A stretch of DNA of 14,270 nucleotides from Nitrospiraceae bacterium (GTDB taxonomy: Bacteria > Nitrospirota > Nitrospiria > Nitrospirales > Nitrospiraceae), in assembly GCA_050731155.1 (NCBI GenBank), contig JBOHOI010000053.1:1-14270 (forward strand), given 5' to 3'. The translations under genes were made by a program, and so were the position numbers. How positions within the stretch are numbered: position 1 is the stretch's first letter; each line of letters opens with the position of its first letter. The notes beneath the pieces are model-generated. The model worked only from the letters and a program-made list of their open reading frames with translations, was not told the origin of the DNA and did no database searches. This document shows positions 1-13,447 of the stretch, piece by piece.

Positions 1-742
1 CTATCAAATGGTCGGGCGCGGCATGCGGCTCGATGCGCCGACCGGAAAGCTCATGTTCCGCGTCTACGACTACACCGATGCCACGCGGCTCTTCGGTGAA
101 GAGTTCATCAGCAAGGCCACGCCGCCACGAAAGCGCAAGGAGGGACCAAGCCCAGAACCTCCGGAGCCGCTGGAACCCACCATTCAAGTTGAGGGGTTCG
201 ACGTCCGCGTTACCGACGCCGGGCGCTACATCGTGACGCAAGTGGACGGCAAAGCTATGCCCGTCACTGTAGAGGAATACAAGGCGCGTCTGGCAGCTAA
301 ACTCGTTGAGGAAGCCCCGACGCTGGAAAAATTCCGTGCTCGCTGGATCGCACCTGCTGAGCGTCGAGAACTCCTAGGAAACCTGCCGGACGCGGGTCGG
401 TCGCCGCTCCTGGTTCGTTCATTGGAAAACATGACCGATTACGACCTTTACGATGTGCTGGCCGAACTGGGCTACGGCCTGAATCCGCGCACCCGTCCTG
501 AGCGCGCCGACGCGTTCACGTACAAACATGCGGGTTGGTTGTCGAAATTACCACTACCTACCGCCACCACGCTCAAGGCCCTCGCCGCGCAATTTGCTCG
601 CGCCGGCACGGATGGATTGGAGAACCCACAGGTCTTTCAGACGCCCGAAGTCGTGCAGGCGGGTGGTCTGGCCGCGCTCAAAGCGCTCGGCAATCCTGCC
701 GACGTGCTGCGGGAGACTAAAGAAAGGATGTTCGCGGCGTGA
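1..742 (+). CDS. hsdR: Type I restriction enzyme R subunit (HsdR), C-terminal part; 5' end lies outside the window
   Basis: The frame is open from base 2 and reads ...YQMVGRGMRL, which is helicase motif VI (QxxGRxxR) of SF2/HsdR. It continues into a C-terminal region (…MTDYDLYDVLAELGYG…) reminiscent of the EcoEI/EcoAI-type HsdR C-terminal domain. It is followed in the same strand by hsdS and hsdM. The TGA stop at 740-742 overlaps the GTG start of the next ORF. Confidence 0.85.
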   Translation, partial: YQMVGRGMRLDAPTGKLMFRVYDYTDATRLFGEEFISKATPPRKRKEGPSPEPPEPLEPTIQVEGFDVRVTDAGRYIVTQVDGKAMPVTVEEYKARLAAKLVEEAPTLEKFRARWIAPAERRELLGNLPDAGRSPLLVRSLENMTDYDLYDVLAELGYGLNPRTRPERADAFTYKHAGWLSKLPLPTATTLKALAAQFARAGTDGLENPQVFQTPEVVQAGGLAALKALGNPADVLRETKERMFAA

Positions 743-1326
743 AGGAACAGGAGAGGTTTAAAGAACTCGATAATATAGTCCAAGAGCTTCGACATAATAT
801 TGAAGACCACCGATTTTATAAACTGTATTTCGCTCCTGATACTGATAAGTGGGACAAGTTCTGTGTTGCAATGGACACGCTGGAAGACACTGAGCTGGCT
901 TTGGCCCATTACTTCAACTATGGATTAGGCCGCAGTGATGAGGAGCGTTACCTCCGATTGTATGGAGTTCAGCAAGCCGTTTATCTACAACAAGACGCGA
1001 TTAGGGCTCTTGTTGAAGTCGTGCTTGAAAAGAAATTTGAGCCCTCTGCTGATTCTGCGTGGAGGGCAATCCGGGAAGTCCGCCGCCATATTGGTCACCC
1101 TATAGAAGTCAAGAAGGCCGGGTCGGTCCGAAGGACCTTCCTTACACGGGTCTACCTGGCTATGGGGCTTGTAGGGCTCATCACGAGGGACAGTAAAAAG
1201 GGGGAGAGCGAGCACTGGGGAGGGCAATTGGATGAGGTGTTGTTGGCTTATTTAGCTGAAGCCATTCCGATAGTTCGTGAGATCGGGGAAAGTGTCAAGA
1301 AAAGATGGCCTCTCCCTGAGGATTGA
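739..1326 (+). CDS. Hypothetical 195-aa protein embedded between hsdR and hsdS; candidate HEPN-like (R-x4-H) defence protein
   Basis: The ORF has a GTG start overlapping the hsdR stop (GTGA) and ends 1 nt before the hsdS ATG. It is markedly AT-richer than the flanking genes; a counted 60-nt sample at 761-820 was about 33% GC. It contains REVRRH/RRHIGH (R-x4-H) near residues 113-122. No recognisable enzymatic motif otherwise. Confidence 0.6.
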   Translation: MKEQERFKELDNIVQELRHNIEDHRFYKLYFAPDTDKWDKFCVAMDTLEDTELALAHYFNYGLGRSDEERYLRLYGVQQAVYLQQDAIRALVEVVLEKKFEPSADSAWRAIREVRRHIGHPIEVKKAGSVRRTFLTRVYLAMGLVGLITRDSKKGESEHWGGQLDEVLLAYLAEAIPIVREIGESVKKRWPLPED

Positions 1327-2580: not shown

Positions 2581-3630
2581 ATGCCTCGTGGTCTCTCTGC
2601 CGAAGTCAGGACTCATCTTGAAAAGGCAATGGAATCAGCAATTCTCGCGGTCGAGGTTTATAACAAGCCAGCGACGAAGTTTCGTTCTGGTGGCTACATC
2701 GTGTTAATGACCATTGCGTGGACGGCTTTGTTTCATGCCATCTTTTTGAAACGTAGACAAAAACCTTACTACCGCAATGATCCGGATAACCCAAGGAGCC
2801 GCTACAAAAAGGTCGAAGGGGACTACAAAGCATGGGAGTTGGCAACTTGCTTAAAGAAATTCTATGGATCGAATAACCCACCTGAGCGCAAGAACTTGGA
2901 GTTCTTCGTTGGTCTTCGCAACAAAATCGAGCATCGTTCCATGCCTCAACTGGACCTCAAAATCTTTGGCGAATGTCAGGCCATGCTTTTCAATTTTGAG
3001 GATTGTCTCCTCAAGGAGTGTGGCCAGAAATACGGGCTGAATGAGAGCCTCACTATTGCCCTTCAGTTTTCCCGAATTCAGGATAGCGAGCAGGCGCGAG
3101 CAATTCGTGTGCTGCATCGTCCCCTCCATAAACACATCGAGTCGTACATTCAAACCTTCCGATCATCCTTGAGCAATGACATCGAGAGCGATCTTGCGTA
3201 TAGTTACAAGGTCTTCTTGATTCCTAAGCTGGCAGGTAATCAGGGGCAGGCAGATGTAGCGGTTGAGTTCGTTAAATTCGATCCGAGCACGCCCGACCAA
3301 ATGGAAACCTACGAGAAGATAGTCTCGCTAATAAAGCCAGCAGTGATCCAAGTCGCTAATCCAGGAAAACTTAAGGCCGGGGATGTTGCCAAAGCCGTCG
3401 CTGACGCGACCGGAAGGAAATTTACTGCAAGTAGTCATCACTCCCGTGCGTGGCGGTTCTACCGCATACGACCGCCCAATGGCGATCCCAGGCCTGAAGT
3501 AACTCAGACACAGTATTGTCAATGGGATGAAGCGCATCGGGACTATGTTTACACAGACGCTTGGAAGAAGTTCCTCATGTCTGAAATGAAAGACCCTACA
3601 AAGTACGAACACATAATGCATTCGACATAG
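2581..3630 (+). CDS. HEPN-like protein (DUF3644-like N-terminal domain with LRNKIEH motif) plus an uncharacterised ~200-aa C-terminal domain, embedded between hsdS and hsdM
   Basis: The ATG lies 2 nt after the hsdS stop. The N-terminus (AMESAILAVEVYNKPATKFRSGGYIVLMTIAWTALFHAIFLK …NLEFFVGLRNKIEHRS) matches my memory of the DUF3644 pattern (A.E.YNKP … L.ELRDN.IH). The RNKIEH stretch is a canonical HEPN R-x4-H RNase motif. AT-richer than the hsd genes; a counted 60-nt sample at 2701-2760 was about 42% GC. Confidence 0.7.
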   Translation: MPRGLSAEVRTHLEKAMESAILAVEVYNKPATKFRSGGYIVLMTIAWTALFHAIFLKRRQKPYYRNDPDNPRSRYKKVEGDYKAWELATCLKKFYGSNNPPERKNLEFFVGLRNKIEHRSMPQLDLKIFGECQAMLFNFEDCLLKECGQKYGLNESLTIALQFSRIQDSEQARAIRVLHRPLHKHIESYIQTFRSSLSNDIESDLAYSYKVFLIPKLAGNQGQADVAVEFVKFDPSTPDQMETYEKIVSLIKPAVIQVANPGKLKAGDVAKAVADATGRKFTASSHHSRAWRFYRIRPPNGDPRPEVTQTQYCQWDEAHRDYVYTDAWKKFLMSEMKDPTKYEHIMHST

Positions 3631-3674: not shown

Positions 3675-5216
3675 ATGATGCCACGACCCCGCAAGGATGA
3701 AAACGCCAACGGTAGGCGCCTTGCGACCCAGCGATCCGTCAACGGCGCGATCAAGAGCATCTGCGACATCATGCGCAGGTCTAATTGCGCCGGCGCGCTG
3801 CAATATGTCCCTGAACTGACCTGGATTCTCTTCTTGCGTATCCTCGATGAGCGGGAGACTCGTGAGGCGGAGGAAGCCGAAGCAGTGGGCGCAGACTACG
3901 CACCGTCGCTGACCAAGCCGTATCGCTGGCAGGACTGGGCTGCGCCCAACGGGCCGAAGCGGAAGGAATTACAAGATGGGTCAATGGGGGCGTTCTTTGG
4001 CTTCGTCAACAGCGACTTGATCCCTCGCTTAAAGAAACTCCGTGAACAGCCCAACGCCACTTCGCGCCAAAAGGTCATCAGCGAAATCTTCTCCGGCATT
4101 GAGAAGACCCGCATCGATACCGAGCGCAATTTCCTGGATGTGTTGGATAAGGTCCACGAGATCAGCGCCGAGACCGTAGACCCCACGCATGTCTTCACTC
4201 TTTCGCAGGTGTACGAGGGGCTACTTCTCAAGATGGGCGAGAAGGGCAACGACGGGGGCCAGTTCTTTACCCCCCGCGAGATCATCCGGGCGATGGTAAA
4301 GGTGATCGACCCTAAGATCGGAGAGACGGTCTACGATCCGGGGTGTGGGACGGGGGGCTTCCTAGCACAGTCTTATGAATACATGCGCGACCGTTTGGGT
4401 GACAAGGCGACTGCTCCAGAGATTGAAACCCTTAAGCAACGAACCTTCTACGGACGCGAGAAGGATAATGCCGTCTACCCCATCGGCTTGGCCAACTTGG
4501 TCCTACACGATATTGATGAGCCACACATCTGGCACGGCAACACCTTGACCGGTGCGGAGACATACGGCGGTCTCTTCACCGGTGCCCCTGCCCTCTACGA
4601 CGTGGTGTTGATGAATCCGCCCTTCGGGGGCAAGGAAGGAAAGGATGCCCAGACACGGTTTGCCTACAAGACCGGCGCAACCCAGGTCTTGTTCCTTCAG
4701 CACGTCATCGACAGCCTCAAGCCCGGCGGGCGCTGCGGGATTGTGCAGGATGAAGGGGTGCTCTTCCGCACGAACGAGACGGCTTTCGTGCAAACCAAGC
4801 GCAAGTTGCTAGATGATTGCGACCTCCGGTGCATCGTCAGTCTTCCGGGTGGCGTCTTCACGGCGGCAGGGGCGGGTGTGAAGACGAACCTGCTCTTTTT
4901 CACGAAAGGGCGGCCCACGGAGAAGATTTGGTACTACGACCTGTCTGACATCAAGGTCGGTAAGAAGACTCCATTCACGCTAGATAAATTCGAGGAGTTC
5001 TTCCGTCTGCTCCCGACCCGTGCCGACAGCGAGCGAAGCTGGACCGTCACGCGGAAAGCGATCGAGGAGAAGAACTACGACCTCAAAGCAGTCAATCCGA
5101 ACGCCAAGAGCACTGAAGATACCCGCACCCCCGAAGAACTCTTGGATCTGATCGAAGCCAAAGGCCGCGAAGTCGCCGAAGCGCTCGCCACGCTCCGCGC
5201 CACCAGCAAGAAATAA
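3675..5216 (+). CDS. hsdM: Type I restriction-modification N6-adenine DNA methyltransferase subunit HsdM
   Basis: HsdM N-terminal domain signature (ALQYVPELTWILFLRILD). FFTPREI motif. SAM-binding motif I DPGCGTGGFL. Catalytic motif IV NPPFGG. GGAGA RBS at 3666-3670. The start could be the ATG at 3675 or 3678. Confidence 0.92.
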   Translation: MMPRPRKDENANGRRLATQRSVNGAIKSICDIMRRSNCAGALQYVPELTWILFLRILDERETREAEEAEAVGADYAPSLTKPYRWQDWAAPNGPKRKELQDGSMGAFFGFVNSDLIPRLKKLREQPNATSRQKVISEIFSGIEKTRIDTERNFLDVLDKVHEISAETVDPTHVFTLSQVYEGLLLKMGEKGNDGGQFFTPREIIRAMVKVIDPKIGETVYDPGCGTGGFLAQSYEYMRDRLGDKATAPEIETLKQRTFYGREKDNAVYPIGLANLVLHDIDEPHIWHGNTLTGAETYGGLFTGAPALYDVVLMNPPFGGKEGKDAQTRFAYKTGATQVLFLQHVIDSLKPGGRCGIVQDEGVLFRTNETAFVQTKRKLLDDCDLRCIVSLPGGVFTAAGAGVKTNLLFFTKGRPTEKIWYYDLSDIKVGKKTPFTLDKFEEFFRLLPTRADSERSWTVTRKAIEEKNYDLKAVNPNAKSTEDTRTPEELLDLIEAKGREVAEALATLRATSKK

Positions 5217-5272: not shown

Positions 5273-5311
5273 GCCGTATGGCAGCCCCCTCTGAGGGGGC
5301 TGCCATACGGC
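5273..5311 (+). terminator. 17-bp perfect GC-rich hairpin (gccgtatggcagccccc / tctga / gggggctgccatacggc) followed by a T-rich tract; probable intrinsic terminator of the hsd operon, or an operator palindrome
   Basis: Perfect inverted repeat read directly, with a 5-nt loop, 57 nt after the hsdM stop, followed by tcgttcacttatttctcttgttc. It overlaps the 5' extension of track ORF 5278, so the real start of the next gene is downstream. Confidence 0.45.
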
Positions 5312-5334
5312 TCGTTCACTTATTTCTCTTGTTC

Positions 5335-6456
5335 ATGATTCGTGAACATGGTACATTGGCGAACGCTATGAGAGGAATTGGACAGGAACCCCAGATAGTC
5401 GACTCCGCGCTGGAGCGATTGAAGAGCATTCATCCAGTCAAGGTAGTAAACCTACGCCGAGAGGTACATGTGGGAGATCGGCGTTGGGATGGCGAGGTGA
5501 CACTGAAGACTGATCGCGGCACGTTCCGTTACCTCTTTGAGGTCAAGACCAACTTGCGGCCACAGACCATACGACATCTGCTGATTCAGGCAGACGCGTA
5601 TCGCAAACAATGGGGTAAGGCTACAGGGCTTTTGCTGCTGGCCGATTACGTCAATCCCTCTTTAGGAGATCAGCTCAAAGACGCCGGCATCAATTTCATC
5701 GACACGGCAGGGAACTTGTTCTTGAAGCGGGAGCCGGGGCTGTATCTCTACGTCGAAGGGAAGAAGTCACCCGCCTCCACGAAGGAAAAGCCGACGCGGC
5801 TCTTTCAGCCAAGCGGCCTGACGTTGCTTTTCGGCTTGCTTGTTGAGCCTGAGTCCATCAACCACCCTTACAGGCATCTGTCGGAGGCAAACGGCATTGC
5901 CCTAGGAACAGTTGGTTGGGTCAAACGAGATTTACGAGAACATGGCTACCTGGAGCCCACCGGGAAGGATAGTTTTCGCCTAGTTCGTAAGAAGGACCTC
6001 TTAGATCGCTGGGTGCATGGGTACGCGAGCCGCCTCCGCCCTAAAGTTTTCCTCGGCGAGTATCGTGCCCTGTCGAATGATCTTGATACTGTCGTCAAAT
6101 CGTTCAAACAGTATGCCCTAGAACACGGCATGTCGTGGGGGGTATCAGGAGGGCTCGGTGCTGATGAGCTTGTACACCATTACCGAGGAAACACCGTCAC
6201 ACTCTTCGTCGAATCTTGGAGACACAATGAAGCTCTGAAAGAGCTGAAATGGTTGCCCGTCACAGGAGGCCCCATAACAGCCCTTAAAGGCTTTTCTCCT
6301 CGTGTCTTTCAGATGAGGGGGAAACAGGCCCGCTATCCGGTCGTGCACCCTCTCCTCATTTATGCGGAATTGCTCTATCAGGGGAGCGACCGTGCACTCG
6401 AAACGGCCCGCTTAATCTACAACGAGTTCCTGGAACCCTCCCTTGCCAAAGATTGA
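5335..6456 (+). CDS. Three-module protein: N-terminal PD-(D/E)xK-like domain, central winged helix-turn-helix (AbiEi/COG5340-like), C-terminal domain; probable regulator/antitoxin partner of the downstream nucleotidyltransferase
   Basis: The N-terminal ~150 aa carries …RRWDGEVTLKTDRGTFRYLFEVKTNL…, a D … ExK nuclease-fold pattern. The central region (LSEANGIALGTVGWVKRDLREHGYLEPTGKDSFRLVRKKDLLDRWV) looks like a wHTH. The stop overlaps the next ORF by 14 nt. The start is taken at ATG 5335, after the hairpin; ATG 5368 is an alternative. Confidence 0.55.
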   Translation: MIREHGTLANAMRGIGQEPQIVDSALERLKSIHPVKVVNLRREVHVGDRRWDGEVTLKTDRGTFRYLFEVKTNLRPQTIRHLLIQADAYRKQWGKATGLLLLADYVNPSLGDQLKDAGINFIDTAGNLFLKREPGLYLYVEGKKSPASTKEKPTRLFQPSGLTLLFGLLVEPESINHPYRHLSEANGIALGTVGWVKRDLREHGYLEPTGKDSFRLVRKKDLLDRWVHGYASRLRPKVFLGEYRALSNDLDTVVKSFKQYALEHGMSWGVSGGLGADELVHHYRGNTVTLFVESWRHNEALKELKWLPVTGGPITALKGFSPRVFQMRGKQARYPVVHPLLIYAELLYQGSDRALETARLIYNEFLEPSLAKD

Positions 6457-7240
6457 AGGCGATCTGGCAGAGGCACTGAAACTGCTCCGCAACTATTTCG
6501 AGCGGAGAGAAATATCTTTTGCACTTGTAGGCGCCCTTGTGCCAGCCCTTTTGCTTTCATCCGAAGTCGGAGCCCGAGAGACACGCGATGCGGACCATGT
6601 GATCAAGCTGGCTTCATGGGCAGAGTGGGATGCTGTGATCGCCGAACTCGTCGAATTAGGATTCAGGCGAGGGCGAGGGGAGCAAGAGCACCGATTGTAT
6701 TACAAAACTGGTGAGATTGACTTGATTCCTTATGGAGTCACAAACGGACCTGATGAAGTTCTGATTTGGCGTAAATCCGGGAACCAAATGAACATGACCG
6801 GATTCTCTGACGTATTCCGATATGCCAAACCGACGGAGGTTACGCATGGACTGACTCTTCCTGTTGTGCCGCTCTGGCTCTTTGCCGTCCTTAAGATAAT
6901 CGCCTATCTCGATCGTGAATCCCCGCGAGACCTTTCCGACCTCATCTATGTGCTGGAGCGTTATGAAACATCGGGAGAAGAGTCTCGCCGCTTTGAGGTC
7001 GCAAGTGGCGTTGATGGTGTGACGTATGAAACCTCGGGGGCGTATCTCCTGGGATGCGATGTTCGAGAAAATGCCTCAGATAAGGCCTTGGAATTGATCA
7101 AAGGATTTGTCGCTCCCATCACGGACGAGCATCACAAAGCGATCAATACAATTCTCCGAGAGGAAAACCTCCTGCAGTCTGAGGATCGAAGGCAGTCTGT
7201 GTATCGTTTAATCCAAGCCTTTCGAAAAGGATTAGCCTGA
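6443..7240 (+). CDS. Nucleotidyltransferase-fold protein (AbiEii / minimal NTase-like), probable toxin/effector of a type IV TA-like or Abi pair
   Basis: The N-terminal stretch FALVGALVPALLLSSEVGARETRDADHV fits the pol-beta NTase pattern hG[GS]-x9-13-DxD. Size, position immediately after a wHTH gene, and the overlapping start (TTG at 6443) are typical of AbiEi/AbiEii-like operons. Confidence 0.55.
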   Translation: MPKIEGDLAEALKLLRNYFERREISFALVGALVPALLLSSEVGARETRDADHVIKLASWAEWDAVIAELVELGFRRGRGEQEHRLYYKTGEIDLIPYGVTNGPDEVLIWRKSGNQMNMTGFSDVFRYAKPTEVTHGLTLPVVPLWLFAVLKIIAYLDRESPRDLSDLIYVLERYETSGEESRRFEVASGVDGVTYETSGAYLLGCDVRENASDKALELIKGFVAPITDEHHKAINTILREENLLQSEDRRQSVYRLIQAFRKGLA

Positions 7241-7320
7241 ATGCGAACAAGAAGGGACATGCTACTTTTTCCAGAAGCTTCCACACACATAAGCCGCTGG
7301 CTGGATGCCCTCTTCGAATC

Positions 7321-7345
7321 CCTCCTCCCCCGCGCCGTCCGCGCC
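7321..7345 (+). repeat. Copy 1 of intergenic motif R1 (CCTCCTCCCCCGCGCCGTCCGCGCC)
   Basis: Pyrimidine tract plus a GC mini-palindrome, read directly. A partial second copy (ctcctccccgcggc) lies at 7366-7379. Confidence 0.6.
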
Positions 7346-8008: not shown

Positions 8009-8125
8009 GCTGTCTTGCCGAGGCGCCGTGTCATGTCCAGGCGGGACCACCAGGCCGCTGAACGATACCGTGGTGCCACGCGATCATCGGCCGATTCCAT
8101 CCCGAGCCACGATGATGGGACTCGC

Positions 8126-8141
8126 CCTCCTCCCCCGCGCC
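8126..8141 (+). repeat. Copy 2 of R1 (CCTCCTCCCCCGCGCC)
   Basis: Identical 16-mer core in the convergent intergenic space between the SWIB gene and the - strand gene. Confidence 0.6.
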
Positions 8142-8224
8142 CTCAAAAGTGAGTTACGAACAAGCCTGGCAGGGGAACCCCGCCGCTTGATGCTCTCTGG
8201 ACGCGAGGCTTGCGAAGCATCCTC

Positions 8225-10058: not shown

Positions 10059-10121
10059 CGACGCCCTTCCGGCCGCTGGACCACTCGCTTGACCGCCGTC
10101 GGTAAACGAGCCCTTTCGCTC

Positions 10122-10145
10122 CCTCGTCCCCCGCGCCTCCCGCAG
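10122..10145 (+). repeat. Copy 3 of R1 (CCTCGTCCCCCGCGCCTCCCGCAG)
   Basis: One mismatch in the core. Lies 89 nt downstream of repeat R3 and about 200 nt upstream of the SPFH gene. Confidence 0.55.
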
Positions 10146-11214: not shown

Positions 11215-11247
11215 ACGTCAGCCGCCGGCTGCGGCCCTCTTCCACTC

Positions 11248-11290
11248 CCTCCTCCCCCGCGCCTTCCGCGGCGCATTCTTGTGATTCGCA
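11248..11290 (+). repeat. Copy 4 of R1, extended form (CCTCCTCCCCCGCGCCTTCCGCGGCGCATTCTTGTGATTCGCACC)
   Basis: The core plus a conserved 3' extension (CCTTCCGCGG … ATT.TTGTGATTC) shared with copies 5 and 6. Lies about 80 nt upstream of the DUF433 gene. Confidence 0.6.
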
Positions 11291-11368: not shown

Positions 11369-11614
11369 ATGACGCTCGTCATCGGCGAGAAAGAACTGAG
11401 CCAGTTGCCGGTCACCACTGATCCAGCCATTCTCAGTGGCACGCCCGTGTTCCGTGGTACGCGAGTACCAGTGGACGCCCTCATCAGCAACCTGGAAGCT
11501 GGCCTCACGTTAGACGAGTTTCTGGGAAACTTCCCCACCGTTAGACGCGAGCAGGCTTTGCAGGTCCTTGAGTTCTCCAAAGCGACGCTCCTGAAGCTCG
11601 GCAAGACCGCTTGA
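11369..11614 (+). CDS. DUF433-family protein (putative antitoxin-like partner)
   Basis: The 81-aa protein reads …DPAILSGTPVFRGTRVPVDALISNLEAGLTLDEFLGNFPTVRREQALQVLEF…, matching the DUF433 pattern (GxPxIRGTRIPV … EEIL..YP.LTREDI.AAL.YA). Its 4-nt overlap (ATGA) with the next gene is consistent with an operon. Confidence 0.8.
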   Translation: MTLVIGEKELSQLPVTTDPAILSGTPVFRGTRVPVDALISNLEAGLTLDEFLGNFPTVRREQALQVLEFSKATLLKLGKTA

Positions 11615-11937
11615 GAATCCTGCTCGACGAATCCGCCCCGCGAGTGATCAAGACTCGCCTTCCCAAATTCGCGATCTCCACGGTGCAGGAGATGGGCTGG
11701 ACAGGGCTGAAAAACGGAGAGTTGCTGGACTTGGCCGAACAGCAGTTCGATGTGTTCATCACGGCTGATCAACAGCTTCGCTATCAACAGAACCTGACCG
11801 GCAGGCGTCTCGCAGGGCTCGCCTTGCCCAGCAATCAGGTGCCTGCCGTGACAGAGCTTCTGCCCGCCATCGAGCGGGCCCTCAACTCAATTCAACCTGG
11901 AACCTTTGTTGACATTCCGCTTTCTTCAGGGGGCTGA
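11611..11937 (+). CDS. DUF5615-family (PIN-like, Mut7-C-type) protein; putative toxin partner of DUF433
   Basis: MRILLDESAPRVIKTRL…GELLDLAEQQFDVFITADQQ matches the DUF5615 N-terminus (MK.L.DEN.P …). Its operon partner is a classic DUF433 gene. Confidence 0.8.
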   Translation: MRILLDESAPRVIKTRLPKFAISTVQEMGWTGLKNGELLDLAEQQFDVFITADQQLRYQQNLTGRRLAGLALPSNQVPAVTELLPAIERALNSIQPGTFVDIPLSSGG

Positions 11938-11980
11938 CCTCTCTAGTGACCGCATCCGGTTGAATGGAATTGTTTCTTCC

Positions 11981-12027
11981 CCTCCTTCCCCGCGCCTTCC
12001 CCATGTGTGATTCTCTCGTCACGTCAG
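11981..12027 (+). repeat. Copy 5 of R1, extended form (CCTCCTTCCCCGCGCCTTCCCCATGTGTGATTCTCTCGTC…)
   Basis: The core has one substitution. The extension is …TGTGATTCTC. Lies in convergent intergenic space, followed by R2 and R3. Confidence 0.55.
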
Positions 12028-12056: not shown

Positions 12057-12683
12057 TCACGACGTGCGCGCGGTGGGCTGTCCATGCCAGGGCAGCAGGG
12101 AATAAGTTGACCCCGATCCATCGTTACAACCCGATTCGGGTCTGCCCACTGCCTGGATAGGGGACTCAACTGCCTGGCGGGCTTGGTTGAGGGACTTGAC
12201 CATGTCCACGAGTCGCGCTCGCCCTTCCTCGGAGATTTCGGTGAACCGTACACCCATTCCGGGAGAGAACCTGTATTGGTCGGCTTTCGGGCAAACCCAC
12301 GCGACGGTCCCCTTCGCTCCCAGCCATTCAGAGGGATAGTCAGGGAGCGCAACCTCCATCATCAGTTTGGTCCCGACCGGAAGCGGGTCGTTGCTTTCAA
12401 TAAAAAGCCCTTCATCCCCACCCCCTGAAGGCCGGCTCTCGAACCAGTGACCGTCAGGCGTACGGTAGCGGACATTCAGAACGAGGAAGTCCATCAACTC
12501 AGTGCGCAGACCCTCTGGTTGATTCTGGGCGCGTAAGCCCAGGATCAGGTCAATCACAGATCCCCAGGGCACGGTGCCCATTTGCGCGCCCCCCACGCCG
12601 AGCAGCCGAATGGTTTCACGCTCGTGGTCCAGCTCCAGCAATTTTCCCTTATGTGCCTTGGTGGCAGTGACTGGCAGCTTCAT
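12057..12683 (-). CDS. PilZ-like domain protein (TIGR02266-type C-terminal domain, possibly degenerate), 208 aa
   Basis: The C-terminal half (…LVLNVRYRTPDGHWF…GGGDEGLFIESNDPLPVGTKLMMEVALPD…GTVAWVCP…GMGVRFTEISEEGRARLVDMV) parallels the PilZ-like TIGR02266 pattern (RVPV…GGGLFV…PLPVGT.V.L.L.LP…G.VVWV…PGMGIQF.DL.EEAR.RL). ATG at 12683 with a GGAGGA RBS. The last ~15 codons read into repeat R2. Confidence 0.55.
   Translation of the reverse strand: MKLPVTATKAHKGKLLELDHERETIRLLGVGGAQMGTVPWGSVIDLILGLRAQNQPEGLRTELMDFLVLNVRYRTPDGHWFESRPSGGGDEGLFIESNDPLPVGTKLMMEVALPDYPSEWLGAKGTVAWVCPKADQYRFSPGMGVRFTEISEEGRARLVDMVKSLNQARQAVESPIQAVGRPESGCNDGSGSTYSLLPWHGQPTARTS
12062..12104 (+). repeat. Repeat R2, copy A (GTGCGCGCGGTGGGCTGTCCATGCCAGGGCAGCAGGGAATAAG)
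   Basis: A 43-nt segment that recurs at 13319-13361 with 2 mismatches, read directly. Both copies create the spurious peptide …LLPWHGQPTART in - strand ORFs. Confidence 0.65.
12105..12132 (+). repeat. Repeat R3, copy B
   Basis: Immediately follows R2 copy A, suggesting R2, R3 and R1 are parts of one composite element. Confidence 0.55.
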
Positions 12684-13400: not shown

Positions 13401-13447
13401 CCTCCTCCCCCCGCGCCTTCCGCGGGGAATTGTGAGGTCTCTGTCCG
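13401..13447 (+). repeat. Copy 6 of R1, extended form (CCTCCTCCCCCCGCGCCTTCCGCGGGGAATTGTGAGGTCTCTGTCC)
   Basis: The core contains a 7-bp hairpin, ccccgcg / ccttc / cgcgggg. Lies about 220 nt upstream of the phosphatase gene and is preceded by R2. Confidence 0.6.

What the first reader, a model, noticed from the sequence alone, without database searches (positions are those of the whole stretch)
5335..7240. Two-gene cassette downstream of hsdM: PD-(D/E)xK-like + wHTH protein followed by an AbiEii/MNT-like nucleotidyltransferase
The overlapping gene pair has the wHTH-then-NTase logic of AbiEi/AbiEii type IV TA or abortive-infection systems. The first protein carries an extra N-terminal module with a D…E-x-K pattern (WDGEVTLKTDRGTFRYLFEVKTN), which is not part of canonical AbiEi. 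A nuclease-like sensor fused to the antitoxin/regulator would be unusual. The position right after a type I R-M operon suggests a defence-island arrangement, perhaps functionally linked to the HEPN ORFs; HEPN-MNT pairing is a recurring theme.
Basis: partly seen in the sequence, partly recalled or inferred. Interest (0 to 1): 0.6.

Follow-up and report, generated by a model that had tools for sequence, protein, structure and literature searches.

The report
AbiE-like toxin–antitoxin pair with nuclease-fold regulator
This is a member of a known but barely studied two-gene toxin–antitoxin/phage-defence family: a tRNA-modifying-type nucleotidyltransferase "toxin", preceded by a three-domain regulator that carries a restriction-enzyme-like domain, a DNA-binding domain and a dead copy of the toxin fold.

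Summary
The gene pair is real. Gene A most likely starts at ATG 5368 (362 aa), not 5335. It overlaps gene B (6443-7240, 265 aa) by 14 nt.

- **Gene B** is a diverged DUF1814/AbiEii (COG4849, MenT1-like) nucleotidyltransferase. Its catalytic residues and the phospho-acceptor Thr (T47-R-D-A-D) are intact.
- **The pairing is known.** COG4861–COG4849 was described by Dy et al. 2014 and includes M. tuberculosis MenA2–MenT2. I found it in at least 549 species genomes.
- **The nuclease-like module is constitutive in this family**, so it is not an oddity of this locus.
- **A palindrome, TGTTCA-N7-TGAACA, overlaps gene A's promoter** and recurs upstream of homologues across phyla (about 700-fold enrichment). 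This points to autoregulation.
- **Linkage to type I R-M is a local defence-island habit** (7 of 80 loci). Linkage to the HEPN-like ORFs is not supported (0 of 80).

Verdict: a new member of a known kind, with domain-level details I found nowhere in the searchable literature. No function was tested here.

The parts
5314..5319 (+). Extra operator half-site GTTCAC, 17 nt (start to start) upstream of the first arm of the palindrome
   Evidence: invariant TGTTCAC block in all five aligned relatives.
5329..5357 (+). Promoter-like block: -35-like TTGTTC (5329-5334), a 17-nt spacer, -10-like TACATT (5352-5357). It ends 10 nt before ATG 5368, so the mRNA would be leaderless or nearly so.
   Evidence: Conserved across relatives with 62-84% protein identity. 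It does not reach the consensus scan threshold, so promoter function is inferred from conservation only.
5331..5347 (.). Operator palindrome GTTCATGATTCGTGAAC (TGTTCA-N7-TGAACA type), inside the promoter spacer
   Evidence: Unique in the window; 0.01 expected by chance. One copy upstream of gene A in 7 related loci. GTTCA-N7-TGAAC gives 59 hits in 21.5 kb around A starts against 2 hits in 657 kb elsewhere, across phyla. Also present in Ralstonia solanacearum.
5368..6456 (+). Gene A: 362-aa COG4861 / Pfam AbiEi_2 three-domain protein, the putative antitoxin and autoregulator
   Evidence: The start is chosen from conservation.
5368..5760 (+). Gene A N-terminal domain: PD-(D/E)xK restriction-endonuclease-like fold (alpha-beta-beta-beta-alpha-beta core)
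5488..5547 (+). Putative catalytic residues D41 (5488-5490) and E58-V-K60 (5539-5547)
   Evidence: Kept in 107, 105 and 106 of 110 close homologues. Full triad in 60 of 81 species-level loci and 56 of 76 cluster representatives.
5698..5715 (+). IDTAGN motif (D112, G115, N116), the most strictly conserved motif of the N-terminal domain; role unknown
   Evidence: D112 79 of 81, G115 81 of 81, N116 81 of 81 loci; all three 76 of 76 representatives.
5809..5982 (+). Gene A central winged helix-turn-helix
5989..6444 (+). Gene A C-terminal domain (the Pfam AbiEi_2 region): nucleotidyltransferase-like fold without the catalytic DxD (pseudo-NTase)
6443..7240 (+). Gene B: 265-aa DUF1814/AbiEii-type (COG4849, MenT1-like) nucleotidyltransferase, the putative toxin. 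TTG start, overlapping gene A by 14 nt.
6530..6595 (+). Gene B motif I (G30-A31, 6530-6535) and motif II with phospho-acceptor (T47-R-D49-A-D51, 6581-6595)
   Evidence: Invariant in alignment A2. Aligns with MenT1 T39/D41/D43 (roles from PMC11375011).
6893..6940 (+). Gene B motif III KIIAYLDR (KLxAaxxR type) and motif IV RDLSD (+DxxD)
   Evidence: K151, R158, R162, D163 and D166 are invariant. They align with MenT1 K137…D152. Motif definitions from PMC3985639.

Best explanation
The locus is a self-contained, autoregulated two-gene module of the COG4861–COG4849 branch of the AbiE/MenAT family, the same branch as M. tuberculosis MenA2–MenT2.

Gene B encodes a DUF1814 nucleotidyltransferase with a complete active site. 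By analogy with MenT1, MenT3 and AbiEii, it would add nucleotides to tRNA 3' ends and stop translation.

Gene A encodes its partner. The winged helix binds the palindrome TGTTCA-N7-TGAACA that overlaps the pair's own promoter and represses transcription. The C-terminal domain is a catalytically dead NTase-like fold and neutralises B. It could do so by direct binding, possibly with induced auto-phosphorylation of B at the conserved T47 (type VII logic). It could also do so by mimicking or occupying what the toxin binds.

The N-terminal PD-(D/E)xK domain has an intact catalytic triad in this clade. It is an accessory nucleic-acid-handling module, acting as trigger sensor, second effector or dimerisation scaffold.

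Shown here: gene structure, family membership, folds, residue conservation, conserved pairing, conserved operator. Inferred: toxicity, neutralisation, phosphorylation, repression, nuclease activity, anti-phage role.
For: - Gene A family: Pfam AbiEi_2 at 64.4 bits against a cut-off of 21. NCBI names the product 'type IV TA system AbiEi family antitoxin'.
- Gene B: its only PDB sequence hit is MenT1 (E 0.004). T47/D49/D51/K151/D166 are invariant and match MenT1 T39/D41/D43/K137/D152, whose roles are established (PMC11375011). Motifs III and IV match Dy et al. 2014. Partner NTases of distant homologues pass the AbiEii gathering score.
- Pairing: a B-family ORF lies directly downstream in 70 of 80 species-level loci, often overlapping. 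The 14-nt TTG overlap is conserved in close relatives.
- Operator: about 700-fold enrichment of GTTCA-N7-TGAAC upstream of A genes across phyla. The window copy lies in the promoter spacer.
- Autonomy: the pair also occurs without R-M neighbours.
- Defence association: it lies in defence islands here and in L004-L007.
- Literature: COG4861–COG4849 was recognised as an AbiE-like pair with a 99% STRING association (PMC3985639).
Against: - No member of the COG4861 branch has a demonstrated toxin–antitoxin or anti-phage phenotype. MenT2, the one tested partner toxin, was not toxic in M. smegmatis or E. coli (PMC7450476).
- Gene B falls below Pfam's AbiEii gathering score (18.3 against 22.5) and has G-A instead of G-[GS].
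- Gene A shows no detectable sequence or top-ranked fold similarity to canonical AbiEi (6Y8Q) or Rv2827c (1ZEL). The neutralisation mechanism therefore cannot simply be transferred from those proteins.
- The profile-profile match between A's C-terminal domain and B is not significant (probability 2%).
- PADLOC gives no hit for gene A.
- The promoter hexamers are weak and were missed by the consensus scan.
Confidence: 0.6

Rival explanations
1. Reversed or dual polarity. Gene A is itself an effector: its PD-(D/E)xK domain cuts DNA or RNA once triggered. The NTase B is a modifier or antitoxin of A, as MNT is for HEPN in type VII systems, or a co-effector. It is not the primary toxin.
For: The catalytic triad D41/E58/K60 is retained in 97% of the close clade and about 74% family-wide. 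This is unexpected for a purely structural domain. MenT2 was not toxic on its own. A nuclease fold plus a sequence-specific wHTH is an architecture shared with restriction enzymes such as SdaI and PaqCI, which appear among the fold hits.
Against: B keeps every residue needed for MenT-type toxicity, including the phospho-acceptor Thr. About a quarter of lineages, including Ralstonia solanacearum, have lost the triad but keep the pair and the operator. MenA2 alone was not reported as toxic, whereas MenA4 toxicity was noted explicitly. An active nuclease guided by the wHTH would cut its own promoter.
Confidence: 0.12
2. A plain autoregulated transcription factor plus an NTase with a housekeeping or stress-regulatory role, not defence. 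The nuclease-fold domain would be a decayed scaffold used for dimerisation, so that two winged helices can read the palindrome.
For: The palindrome, with 5-6-bp half-sites about one helical turn apart, suits a dimer. The IDTAGN motif is more strictly conserved than the catalytic triad, and the triad is lost in about 25% of lineages. [quoted passage not shown] No relatives were found in 2.9 million viral contigs.
Against: The triad is strongly retained in most lineages despite only 25-35% overall identity. The pair recurs in defence islands next to R-M, NACHT, Mrr and other AbiE genes. Its patchy distribution across phyla is that of a mobile accessory module.
Confidence: 0.15
3. The pair is functionally integrated with the upstream type I R-M operon and its embedded HEPN-like ORFs, for example as a HEPN-MNT-like partnership.
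For: It lies immediately downstream of hsdM here and in the Nitrospira relatives L005/L006 and L007. DUF3644 matches the PADLOC defence candidate PDC-S19.
Against: hsdM lies within 6 kb in only 7 of 80 related loci. DUF3644 and ORF195 homologues occur in 0 of 80. The genes embedded in the R-M operon differ between relatives: DUF4268, SLFN/AlbA_2. The pair has its own conserved promoter/operator, and in this window a -40.7 kcal/mol hairpin separates it from hsdM. B is a DUF1814 enzyme, not a minimal MNT.
Confidence: 0.05

Closest known systems
M. tuberculosis MenA2–MenT2 (Rv0837c–Rv0836c), the COG4861–DUF1814 pair
   Same: Same family pairing by the literature's classification. A large COG4861 protein, bigger than the toxin, lies upstream of a DUF1814 NTase (PMC7450476, PMC3968373). 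Gene A is PF09952/COG4861.
   Different: I could not retrieve Rv0837c, so its domain content and triad status were not compared. MenT2 was non-toxic in the two hosts tested. The Nitrospiraceae pair is untested and lies in a defence island.
S. agalactiae / lactococcal AbiEi–AbiEii (COG5340–COG2253)
   Same: A bicistronic, overlapping 'wHTH regulator then DUF1814 NTase' operon. Inverted repeats in the promoter are bound by the regulator. The toxin has motifs I-IV and a Thr two residues before the first Asp of DxD (AbiEii T65/D67/D69 against B T47/D49/D51) (PMC3985639; bioRxiv 10.64898/2026.01.19.700257).
   Different: Gene A has three domains, not two. It has no Pfam AbiEi_1/3/4 match, and 6Y8Q/1ZEL are absent from the top fold hits. 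Its C-terminal domain is NTase-like and its N-terminus is a nuclease fold. B belongs to the COG4849 (MenT1-like) subgroup and has G-A in motif I.
MenT1 (Rv0078A; PDB 8AN4), a COG4849 NTase toxin
   Different: MenT1's antitoxin MenA1 is a 68-aa peptide without a DNA-binding domain. B has an extra C-terminal extension of about 80 residues.
PD-(D/E)xK nucleases of the NucS/EndoMS, XisH-like, Card1/Can2 and Cap4 type
   Same: Core fold, with D…ExK placed on strands 2 and 3. Several are effector domains of defence systems fused to sensor domains.
   Different: Sequence identity is only 9-17%. No activity is known for the COG4861 domain. The family-specific IDTAGN motif is not a feature I can map to those enzymes. 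I did not find the domain in the main text of the 2012 PD-(D/E)XK census.

Membership tests
COG4861 / Pfam PF09952 (AbiEi_2) | Match to PF09952 above the gathering score | tested here: met
   64.4 bits against 21, profile positions 1-142 of 143. All full-length homologues carry PF09952.
COG4861 / Pfam PF09952 (AbiEi_2) | Contains a winged helix-turn-helix | tested here: met
COG4861 / Pfam PF09952 (AbiEi_2) | Encoded immediately upstream of a DUF1814 (COG4849) NTase gene | tested here: met
   14-nt overlap in the window. 70 of 80 species-level loci.
Canonical AbiEi (COG5340; AbiEi 6Y8Q, Rv2827c 1ZEL) | Sequence or fold homology to the COG5340 two-domain antitoxin | tested here: not met
Canonical AbiEi (COG5340; AbiEi 6Y8Q, Rv2827c 1ZEL) | Autoregulation through inverted repeats in its own promoter | tested here: inconclusive
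   A conserved palindrome overlaps the promoter-like block. Binding and repression were not measured.
DUF1814 / AbiEii (PF08843), COG4849 subgroup | Match to PF08843 above the gathering score | tested here: inconclusive
   The window protein scores 18.3 bits against a cut-off of 22.5. 12 of 19 close relatives hit at E<=0.01. Partner NTases of distant A homologues score 24-36 bits and are found by the B-family HMM at E 1e-21 to 1e-32.
DUF1814 / AbiEii (PF08843), COG4849 subgroup | Motif I hG[G/S] | tested here: not met
   V-G30-A31, invariant in the subfamily. The first Gly is kept. The Ralstonia and L003 partner NTases also read G-A, and MenT1 reads G-G.
DUF1814 / AbiEii (PF08843), COG4849 subgroup | Motif II DhD | tested here: met
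   D49-A-D51, invariant. Aligned with MenT1 D41/D43.
DUF1814 / AbiEii (PF08843), COG4849 subgroup | Motif III KLxAaxxR and motif IV +DxxD | tested here: met
   K151-IIAYLD-R158 and R162-D-L-S-D166, invariant. Definitions in PMC3985639.
DUF1814 / AbiEii (PF08843), COG4849 subgroup | Growth inhibition relieved by the upstream gene; NTase activity on tRNA | not testable with these tools
   Needs expression and biochemical assays.
PD-(D/E)xK nuclease superfamily (N-terminal domain of gene A) | alpha-beta-beta-beta-alpha-beta core fold | tested here: met
PD-(D/E)xK nuclease superfamily (N-terminal domain of gene A) | Conserved D on strand 2 and (D/E)xK on strand 3 | tested here: met
   D41, E58 and K60 in the window. 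Kept in 97%, 95% and 96% of the close clade. Full triad in 74% family-wide.
PD-(D/E)xK nuclease superfamily (N-terminal domain of gene A) | Metal-dependent phosphodiesterase activity | not testable with these tools
   Needs a purified-protein assay.
HEPN–MNT toxin–antitoxin | A minimal NTase genetically paired with a HEPN protein | tested here: not met
   The conserved partner of B is gene A (70 of 80 loci). DUF3644 and ORF195 homologues occur in 0 of 80 loci.
Type VII TA (antitoxin-induced toxin auto-phosphorylation; MenAT1/3, AbiE) | Ser/Thr acceptor two residues before the first Asp of motif II | tested here: met
   T47 is invariant. It aligns with MenT1 T39. Ser is at this position in Ralstonia.
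Type VII TA (antitoxin-induced toxin auto-phosphorylation; MenAT1/3, AbiE) | Phosphorylation of the toxin that depends on the antitoxin | not testable with these tools
   Needs Phos-tag or mass spectrometry of co-expressed proteins.

The most novel reading that the evidence does not exclude
COG4861 'antitoxins' would not be simple regulators but composite proteins. A catalytically active restriction-enzyme-like domain would sense or attack invading nucleic acid. A dead paralogue of the toxin's own NTase fold would hold the live NTase in check by molecular mimicry. A family-wide operator, TGTTCA-N7-TGAACA, would tie expression to the state of this protein. This would be a new mode of toxin control and a second effector within the AbiE/MenAT superfamily, and it could explain why MenT2 looks inert in standard toxicity assays.
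Probability: 0.3. Interest if true: 0.6.

Novelty: new member of a known kind. Interest (0 to 1): 0.4.

Why it matters
The COG4861–COG4849 branch is the least understood part of the widespread AbiE/MenAT family. Its only tested member, MenA2–MenT2 of M. tuberculosis, gave no toxicity phenotype.

This analysis turns a "hypothetical antitoxin" into concrete experiments. The partner protein carries a nuclease fold with a mostly conserved catalytic triad. It also carries a winged helix with a pan-phylum operator and a pseudo-NTase domain. Each of these can be tested by point mutants, EMSA, nuclease assays and phosphorylation assays.

For this window the result is mainly annotation: a standard defence-island passenger, with a corrected start codon.

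Tried and rejected
- **ATG 5278 and ATG 5335 as starts of gene A.** Rejected. 5278 lies in a 39-bp palindrome, and 5335 lies in the conserved operator and reads ACG in relatives.
- **NCBI's 328-aa call (P0001).** It would cut helix 1 and strand 1 of the nuclease fold.
- **Family searches for gene A.** The PDB sequence search gave only noise. NCBIfam gave nothing for either protein. PADLOC gave nothing meaningful for gene A and only weak AbiEii/PDC-M21B hits for gene B.
- **Homology between A's C-terminal domain and B.** hhalign aligned the Gly-rich motif regions, but at 2% probability. The relationship is therefore claimed at fold level only.
- **AlphaFold database fold search.** Unavailable.
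- **Consensus promoter scan.** It found no sigma-70 site. The promoter is inferred from conservation only.
- **tRNA and Rfam scans of the window.** Empty.
- **Viral contigs.** No relatives.
- **Literature.** I found no description of the COG4861 N-terminal nuclease fold or pseudo-NTase domain. The supplements of the PD-(D/E)XK census are not held.
- **HEPN-MNT idea.** Rejected on co-occurrence.
Full report
**Origin and layout.** The window is a complete 14,270-bp contig of a Nitrospiraceae metagenome-assembled genome; both products are on record from a contig of exactly this length. The first 7.2 kb is a defence island on the + strand:
- hsdR C-terminus, 8-742
- an unassigned 195-aa ORF, 739-1326
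- hsdS, 1277-2578
- a DUF3644 protein, 2581-3630, which matches PADLOC candidate PDC-S19 at E 1e-133
- hsdM, 3675-5216
- the two genes of the finding

Downstream lie ordinary genes: SWIB, SPFH/Band 7, PilZ and a low-molecular-weight phosphatase.

**Observation.** The pair exists as described. ORF B (6443-7240, TTG start) overlaps ORF A (stop at 6456) by 14 nt, and the same TTG overlap is kept in close relatives. The quoted D…ExK peptide is encoded at 5485-5553.

The start codon needs correction. ATG 5278 lies inside a perfect 39-bp palindrome. ATG 5335 lies inside a DNA block that is conserved as DNA and reads ACG in several relatives. The conserved start is ATG 5368, which gives 362 aa, the length called for many homologues. 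NCBI's 328-aa call starts later still and would remove the first helix and strand of the N-terminal fold.

**Gene A.** Pfam matches only the last ~150 residues (AbiEi_2, PF09952, 64 bits). Homologues nevertheless align over the full length.

- winged-helix regulators

**Residue conservation in gene A.** D41 lies on strand 2 and E58-x-K60 on strand 3, the canonical positions.
- Among 110 homologues they are kept in 107, 105 and 106.
- In a broader sample the full triad is present in 74% (81 species-level loci and 76 cluster representatives). Losses include Ralstonia solanacearum.
- An IDTAGN motif (D112/G115/N116) is almost invariant across the same sample. I cannot explain its role.
- In the C-terminal domain a Gly (G261, in SGGLGA) is invariant among the 110 homologues and kept in 75 of 81 loci. 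It sits where NTases have motif I. The strand that should carry DxD reads F/Y plus a variable residue, so this domain should be catalytically dead.

A profile of the N-terminal domain alone finds 2692 cluster representatives (1060 at E<=1e-10). In the best 150 the domain is always N-terminal, in proteins of about 335-382 aa or in shorter fragments. It is thus a constitutive part of the COG4861 family, not a fusion peculiar to this locus.

**Gene B.** Pfam AbiEii scores below its cut-off (18.3 against 22.5 bits), and PADLOC gives weak AbiEii and PDC-M21B hits. Three lines support membership all the same:
- 12 of 19 close relatives hit AbiEii.
- Partner NTases of distant A homologues pass the cut-off.
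- The only PDB sequence hit of the family profile is MenT1.

Invariant residues are G30-A31, T47-R-D49-A-D51, D93, K151…R158 (KIIAYLDR) and R162-D-L-S-D166. They correspond to DUF1814 motifs I-IV as defined by Dy et al., and to MenT1 T39/D41/K137/D152. In MenT1, T39 is the auto-phosphorylation site. AbiEii has the same T-x-D-x-D arrangement (T65/D67/D69). Motif I is G-A rather than G-[GS], which is a subfamily trait.

**Distribution and context.** A scan of one genome per species found at least 549 genomes with an A relative. They span Nitrospirota, Acidobacteriota, Desulfobacterota, Pseudomonadota, Bacteroidota, Fibrobacterota, Cloacimonadota, Elusimicrobiota and others.

In the 80 best loci:
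- A B-family ORF lies directly downstream in 70, and two more loci are cut short.
- hsdM lies within 6 kb in 7.
- Homologues of DUF3644 or ORF195 occur in none.

In close Nitrospira relatives the pair sits again at the 3' side of type I R-M operons, but the embedded genes differ: DUF4268, SLFN/AlbA_2, and an Mrr-like gene downstream. Elsewhere it sits next to a NACHT protein and a second AbiE pair, or in no defence context at all. It is absent from 2.9 million viral contigs. It is present on replicons in the plasmid collection, chiefly the ~1.8-2.0 Mb Ralstonia replicons. This is defence-island co-localisation, not a functional unit with the R-M or HEPN-like genes.

**Regulatory DNA.** Upstream of ATG 5368 lies a block conserved in relatives: GTTCAC (5314-5319), then TTGTTC (5329-5334), the palindrome GTTCATGATTCGTGAAC (5331-5347), and TACATT (5352-5357). 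The hexamers are spaced like a -35/-10 pair, and the -10-like element ends 10 nt before the ATG. That would give a leaderless or nearly leaderless mRNA. This is inferred, because the consensus scan does not call it.

The palindrome is unique in the window, with 0.01 expected by chance. It is found once per related locus, always upstream of A. Across 80 species-level loci, GTTCA-N7-TGAAC occurs 59 times in 21.5 kb around A starts, against twice in 657 kb elsewhere. Many loci have a second copy about 100 bp upstream. It is also present in R. solanacearum. The motif travels with the gene across phyla, so the simplest reading is that the winged helix of A binds it and autoregulates, as AbiEi does at its own inverted repeats. 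Binding itself is not shown.

**Mechanism, with shown and inferred steps.** The shown steps are family membership, folds, conserved residues, conserved pairing and the conserved operator. The rest is inferred by analogy with MenT1, MenT3 and AbiEii:
- B nucleotidylates tRNA 3' ends and arrests translation.
- A neutralises B through its C-terminal pseudo-NTase domain. This could work by sequestration, by induced auto-phosphorylation at T47, or by competing for the toxin's target.
- A represses the operon.
- The N-terminal nuclease fold senses or cleaves nucleic acid, or serves as a dimerisation scaffold.

The main caveat is that the only tested COG4861-partnered toxin, MenT2, was not toxic in M. 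smegmatis or E. coli. Loss of the triad in about a quarter of lineages shows that nuclease chemistry is not essential for whatever the family does in common.

**Comparison and novelty.** The pair belongs to the COG4861–COG4849 branch, recognised in 2014 and listed in defence-gene catalogues. NCBI already names the gene A product an AbiEi-family antitoxin. It is therefore a new member of a known kind.

It is not a member of canonical AbiEi (COG5340). Homology was tested and not met, although the operon logic is the same.

In the searchable literature I found no description of three features: the restriction-enzyme-like N-terminal domain, the pseudo-NTase nature of the AbiEi_2 domain, and the pan-phylum operator. 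This absence is limited to the held library. These are family-level leads rather than properties special to this window.

**Scores.** Interest is 0.4. The locus itself is ordinary, but the family-level anatomy gives testable hypotheses for an uncharacterised TA branch. The most novel reading not excluded is a nuclease-armed, toxin-mimicking antitoxin. I give it probability about 0.3 and interest 0.6 if true.

Noticed in passing
window 5273-5311: A perfect 39-bp palindrome (19-nt arms, 1 nt between; RNA hairpin -40.7 kcal/mol) lies between the hsdM stop and the gene A promoter. It is absent from the otherwise collinear relative L005, so it looks like a window-specific insertion. It may be a terminator or insulator, or a small palindromic element.
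   Followed up: partly
window 7320-7340, 8125-8145, 10121-10141, 11247-11267, 11980-12000, 13401-13421: Six dispersed copies of a C-rich 21-nt repeat, CCCTCCTCCCCCGCGCCTTCC (81-100% identical), some within longer 43-48-nt similar stretches. The first copy lies 80 nt after the gene B stop. A separate 43-nt repeat occurs at 12064 and 13309 (95%). The nature of these repeats is unknown.
   Followed up: no
window 11369-11937: An overlapping DUF433 (11369-11614) plus DUF5615/PIN-like (11611-11937) gene pair, which looks like a second toxin–antitoxin-type module. DUF433 genes also lie near the A-B pair in relatives L005 and L007.
   Followed up: partly
window 739-1326 and 2581-3630: Two extra ORFs are embedded in the type I R-M operon. 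The DUF3644 protein matches PADLOC candidate PDC-S19 (E 1e-133) and contains an RNKIEH (Rx4H, HEPN-like) motif. The 195-aa ORF between hsdR and hsdS has no family hit but contains RRHIGH. Relatives carry different genes at these positions (DUF4268, SLFN/AlbA_2).
   Followed up: partly
window 5698-5715 (gene A residues 111-116): The IDTAGN motif in the nuclease-fold domain (D112 79 of 81, G115 and N116 81 of 81 loci; all 76 of 76 representatives) is more strictly conserved than the catalytic triad. Its role is unexplained.
   Followed up: partly
L091 (Ralstonia solanacearum OE1-1 ~1.9-Mb replicon listed in the plasmid collection, RSOE_01070/01075): A cultivable organism carries the same pair with the same operator (TGTTCAGTAAGTGTGAACA). 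Its N-terminal domain has lost D…ExK (E/A/R at those positions). It is a natural 'triad-less' comparator for experiments.
   Followed up: partly
window 5470-6456 (NCBI product P0001): The public annotation of gene A (328 aa) starts 34 codons downstream of the conserved ATG 5368 and truncates the nuclease fold. This is probably a start-codon mis-call.
   Followed up: yes
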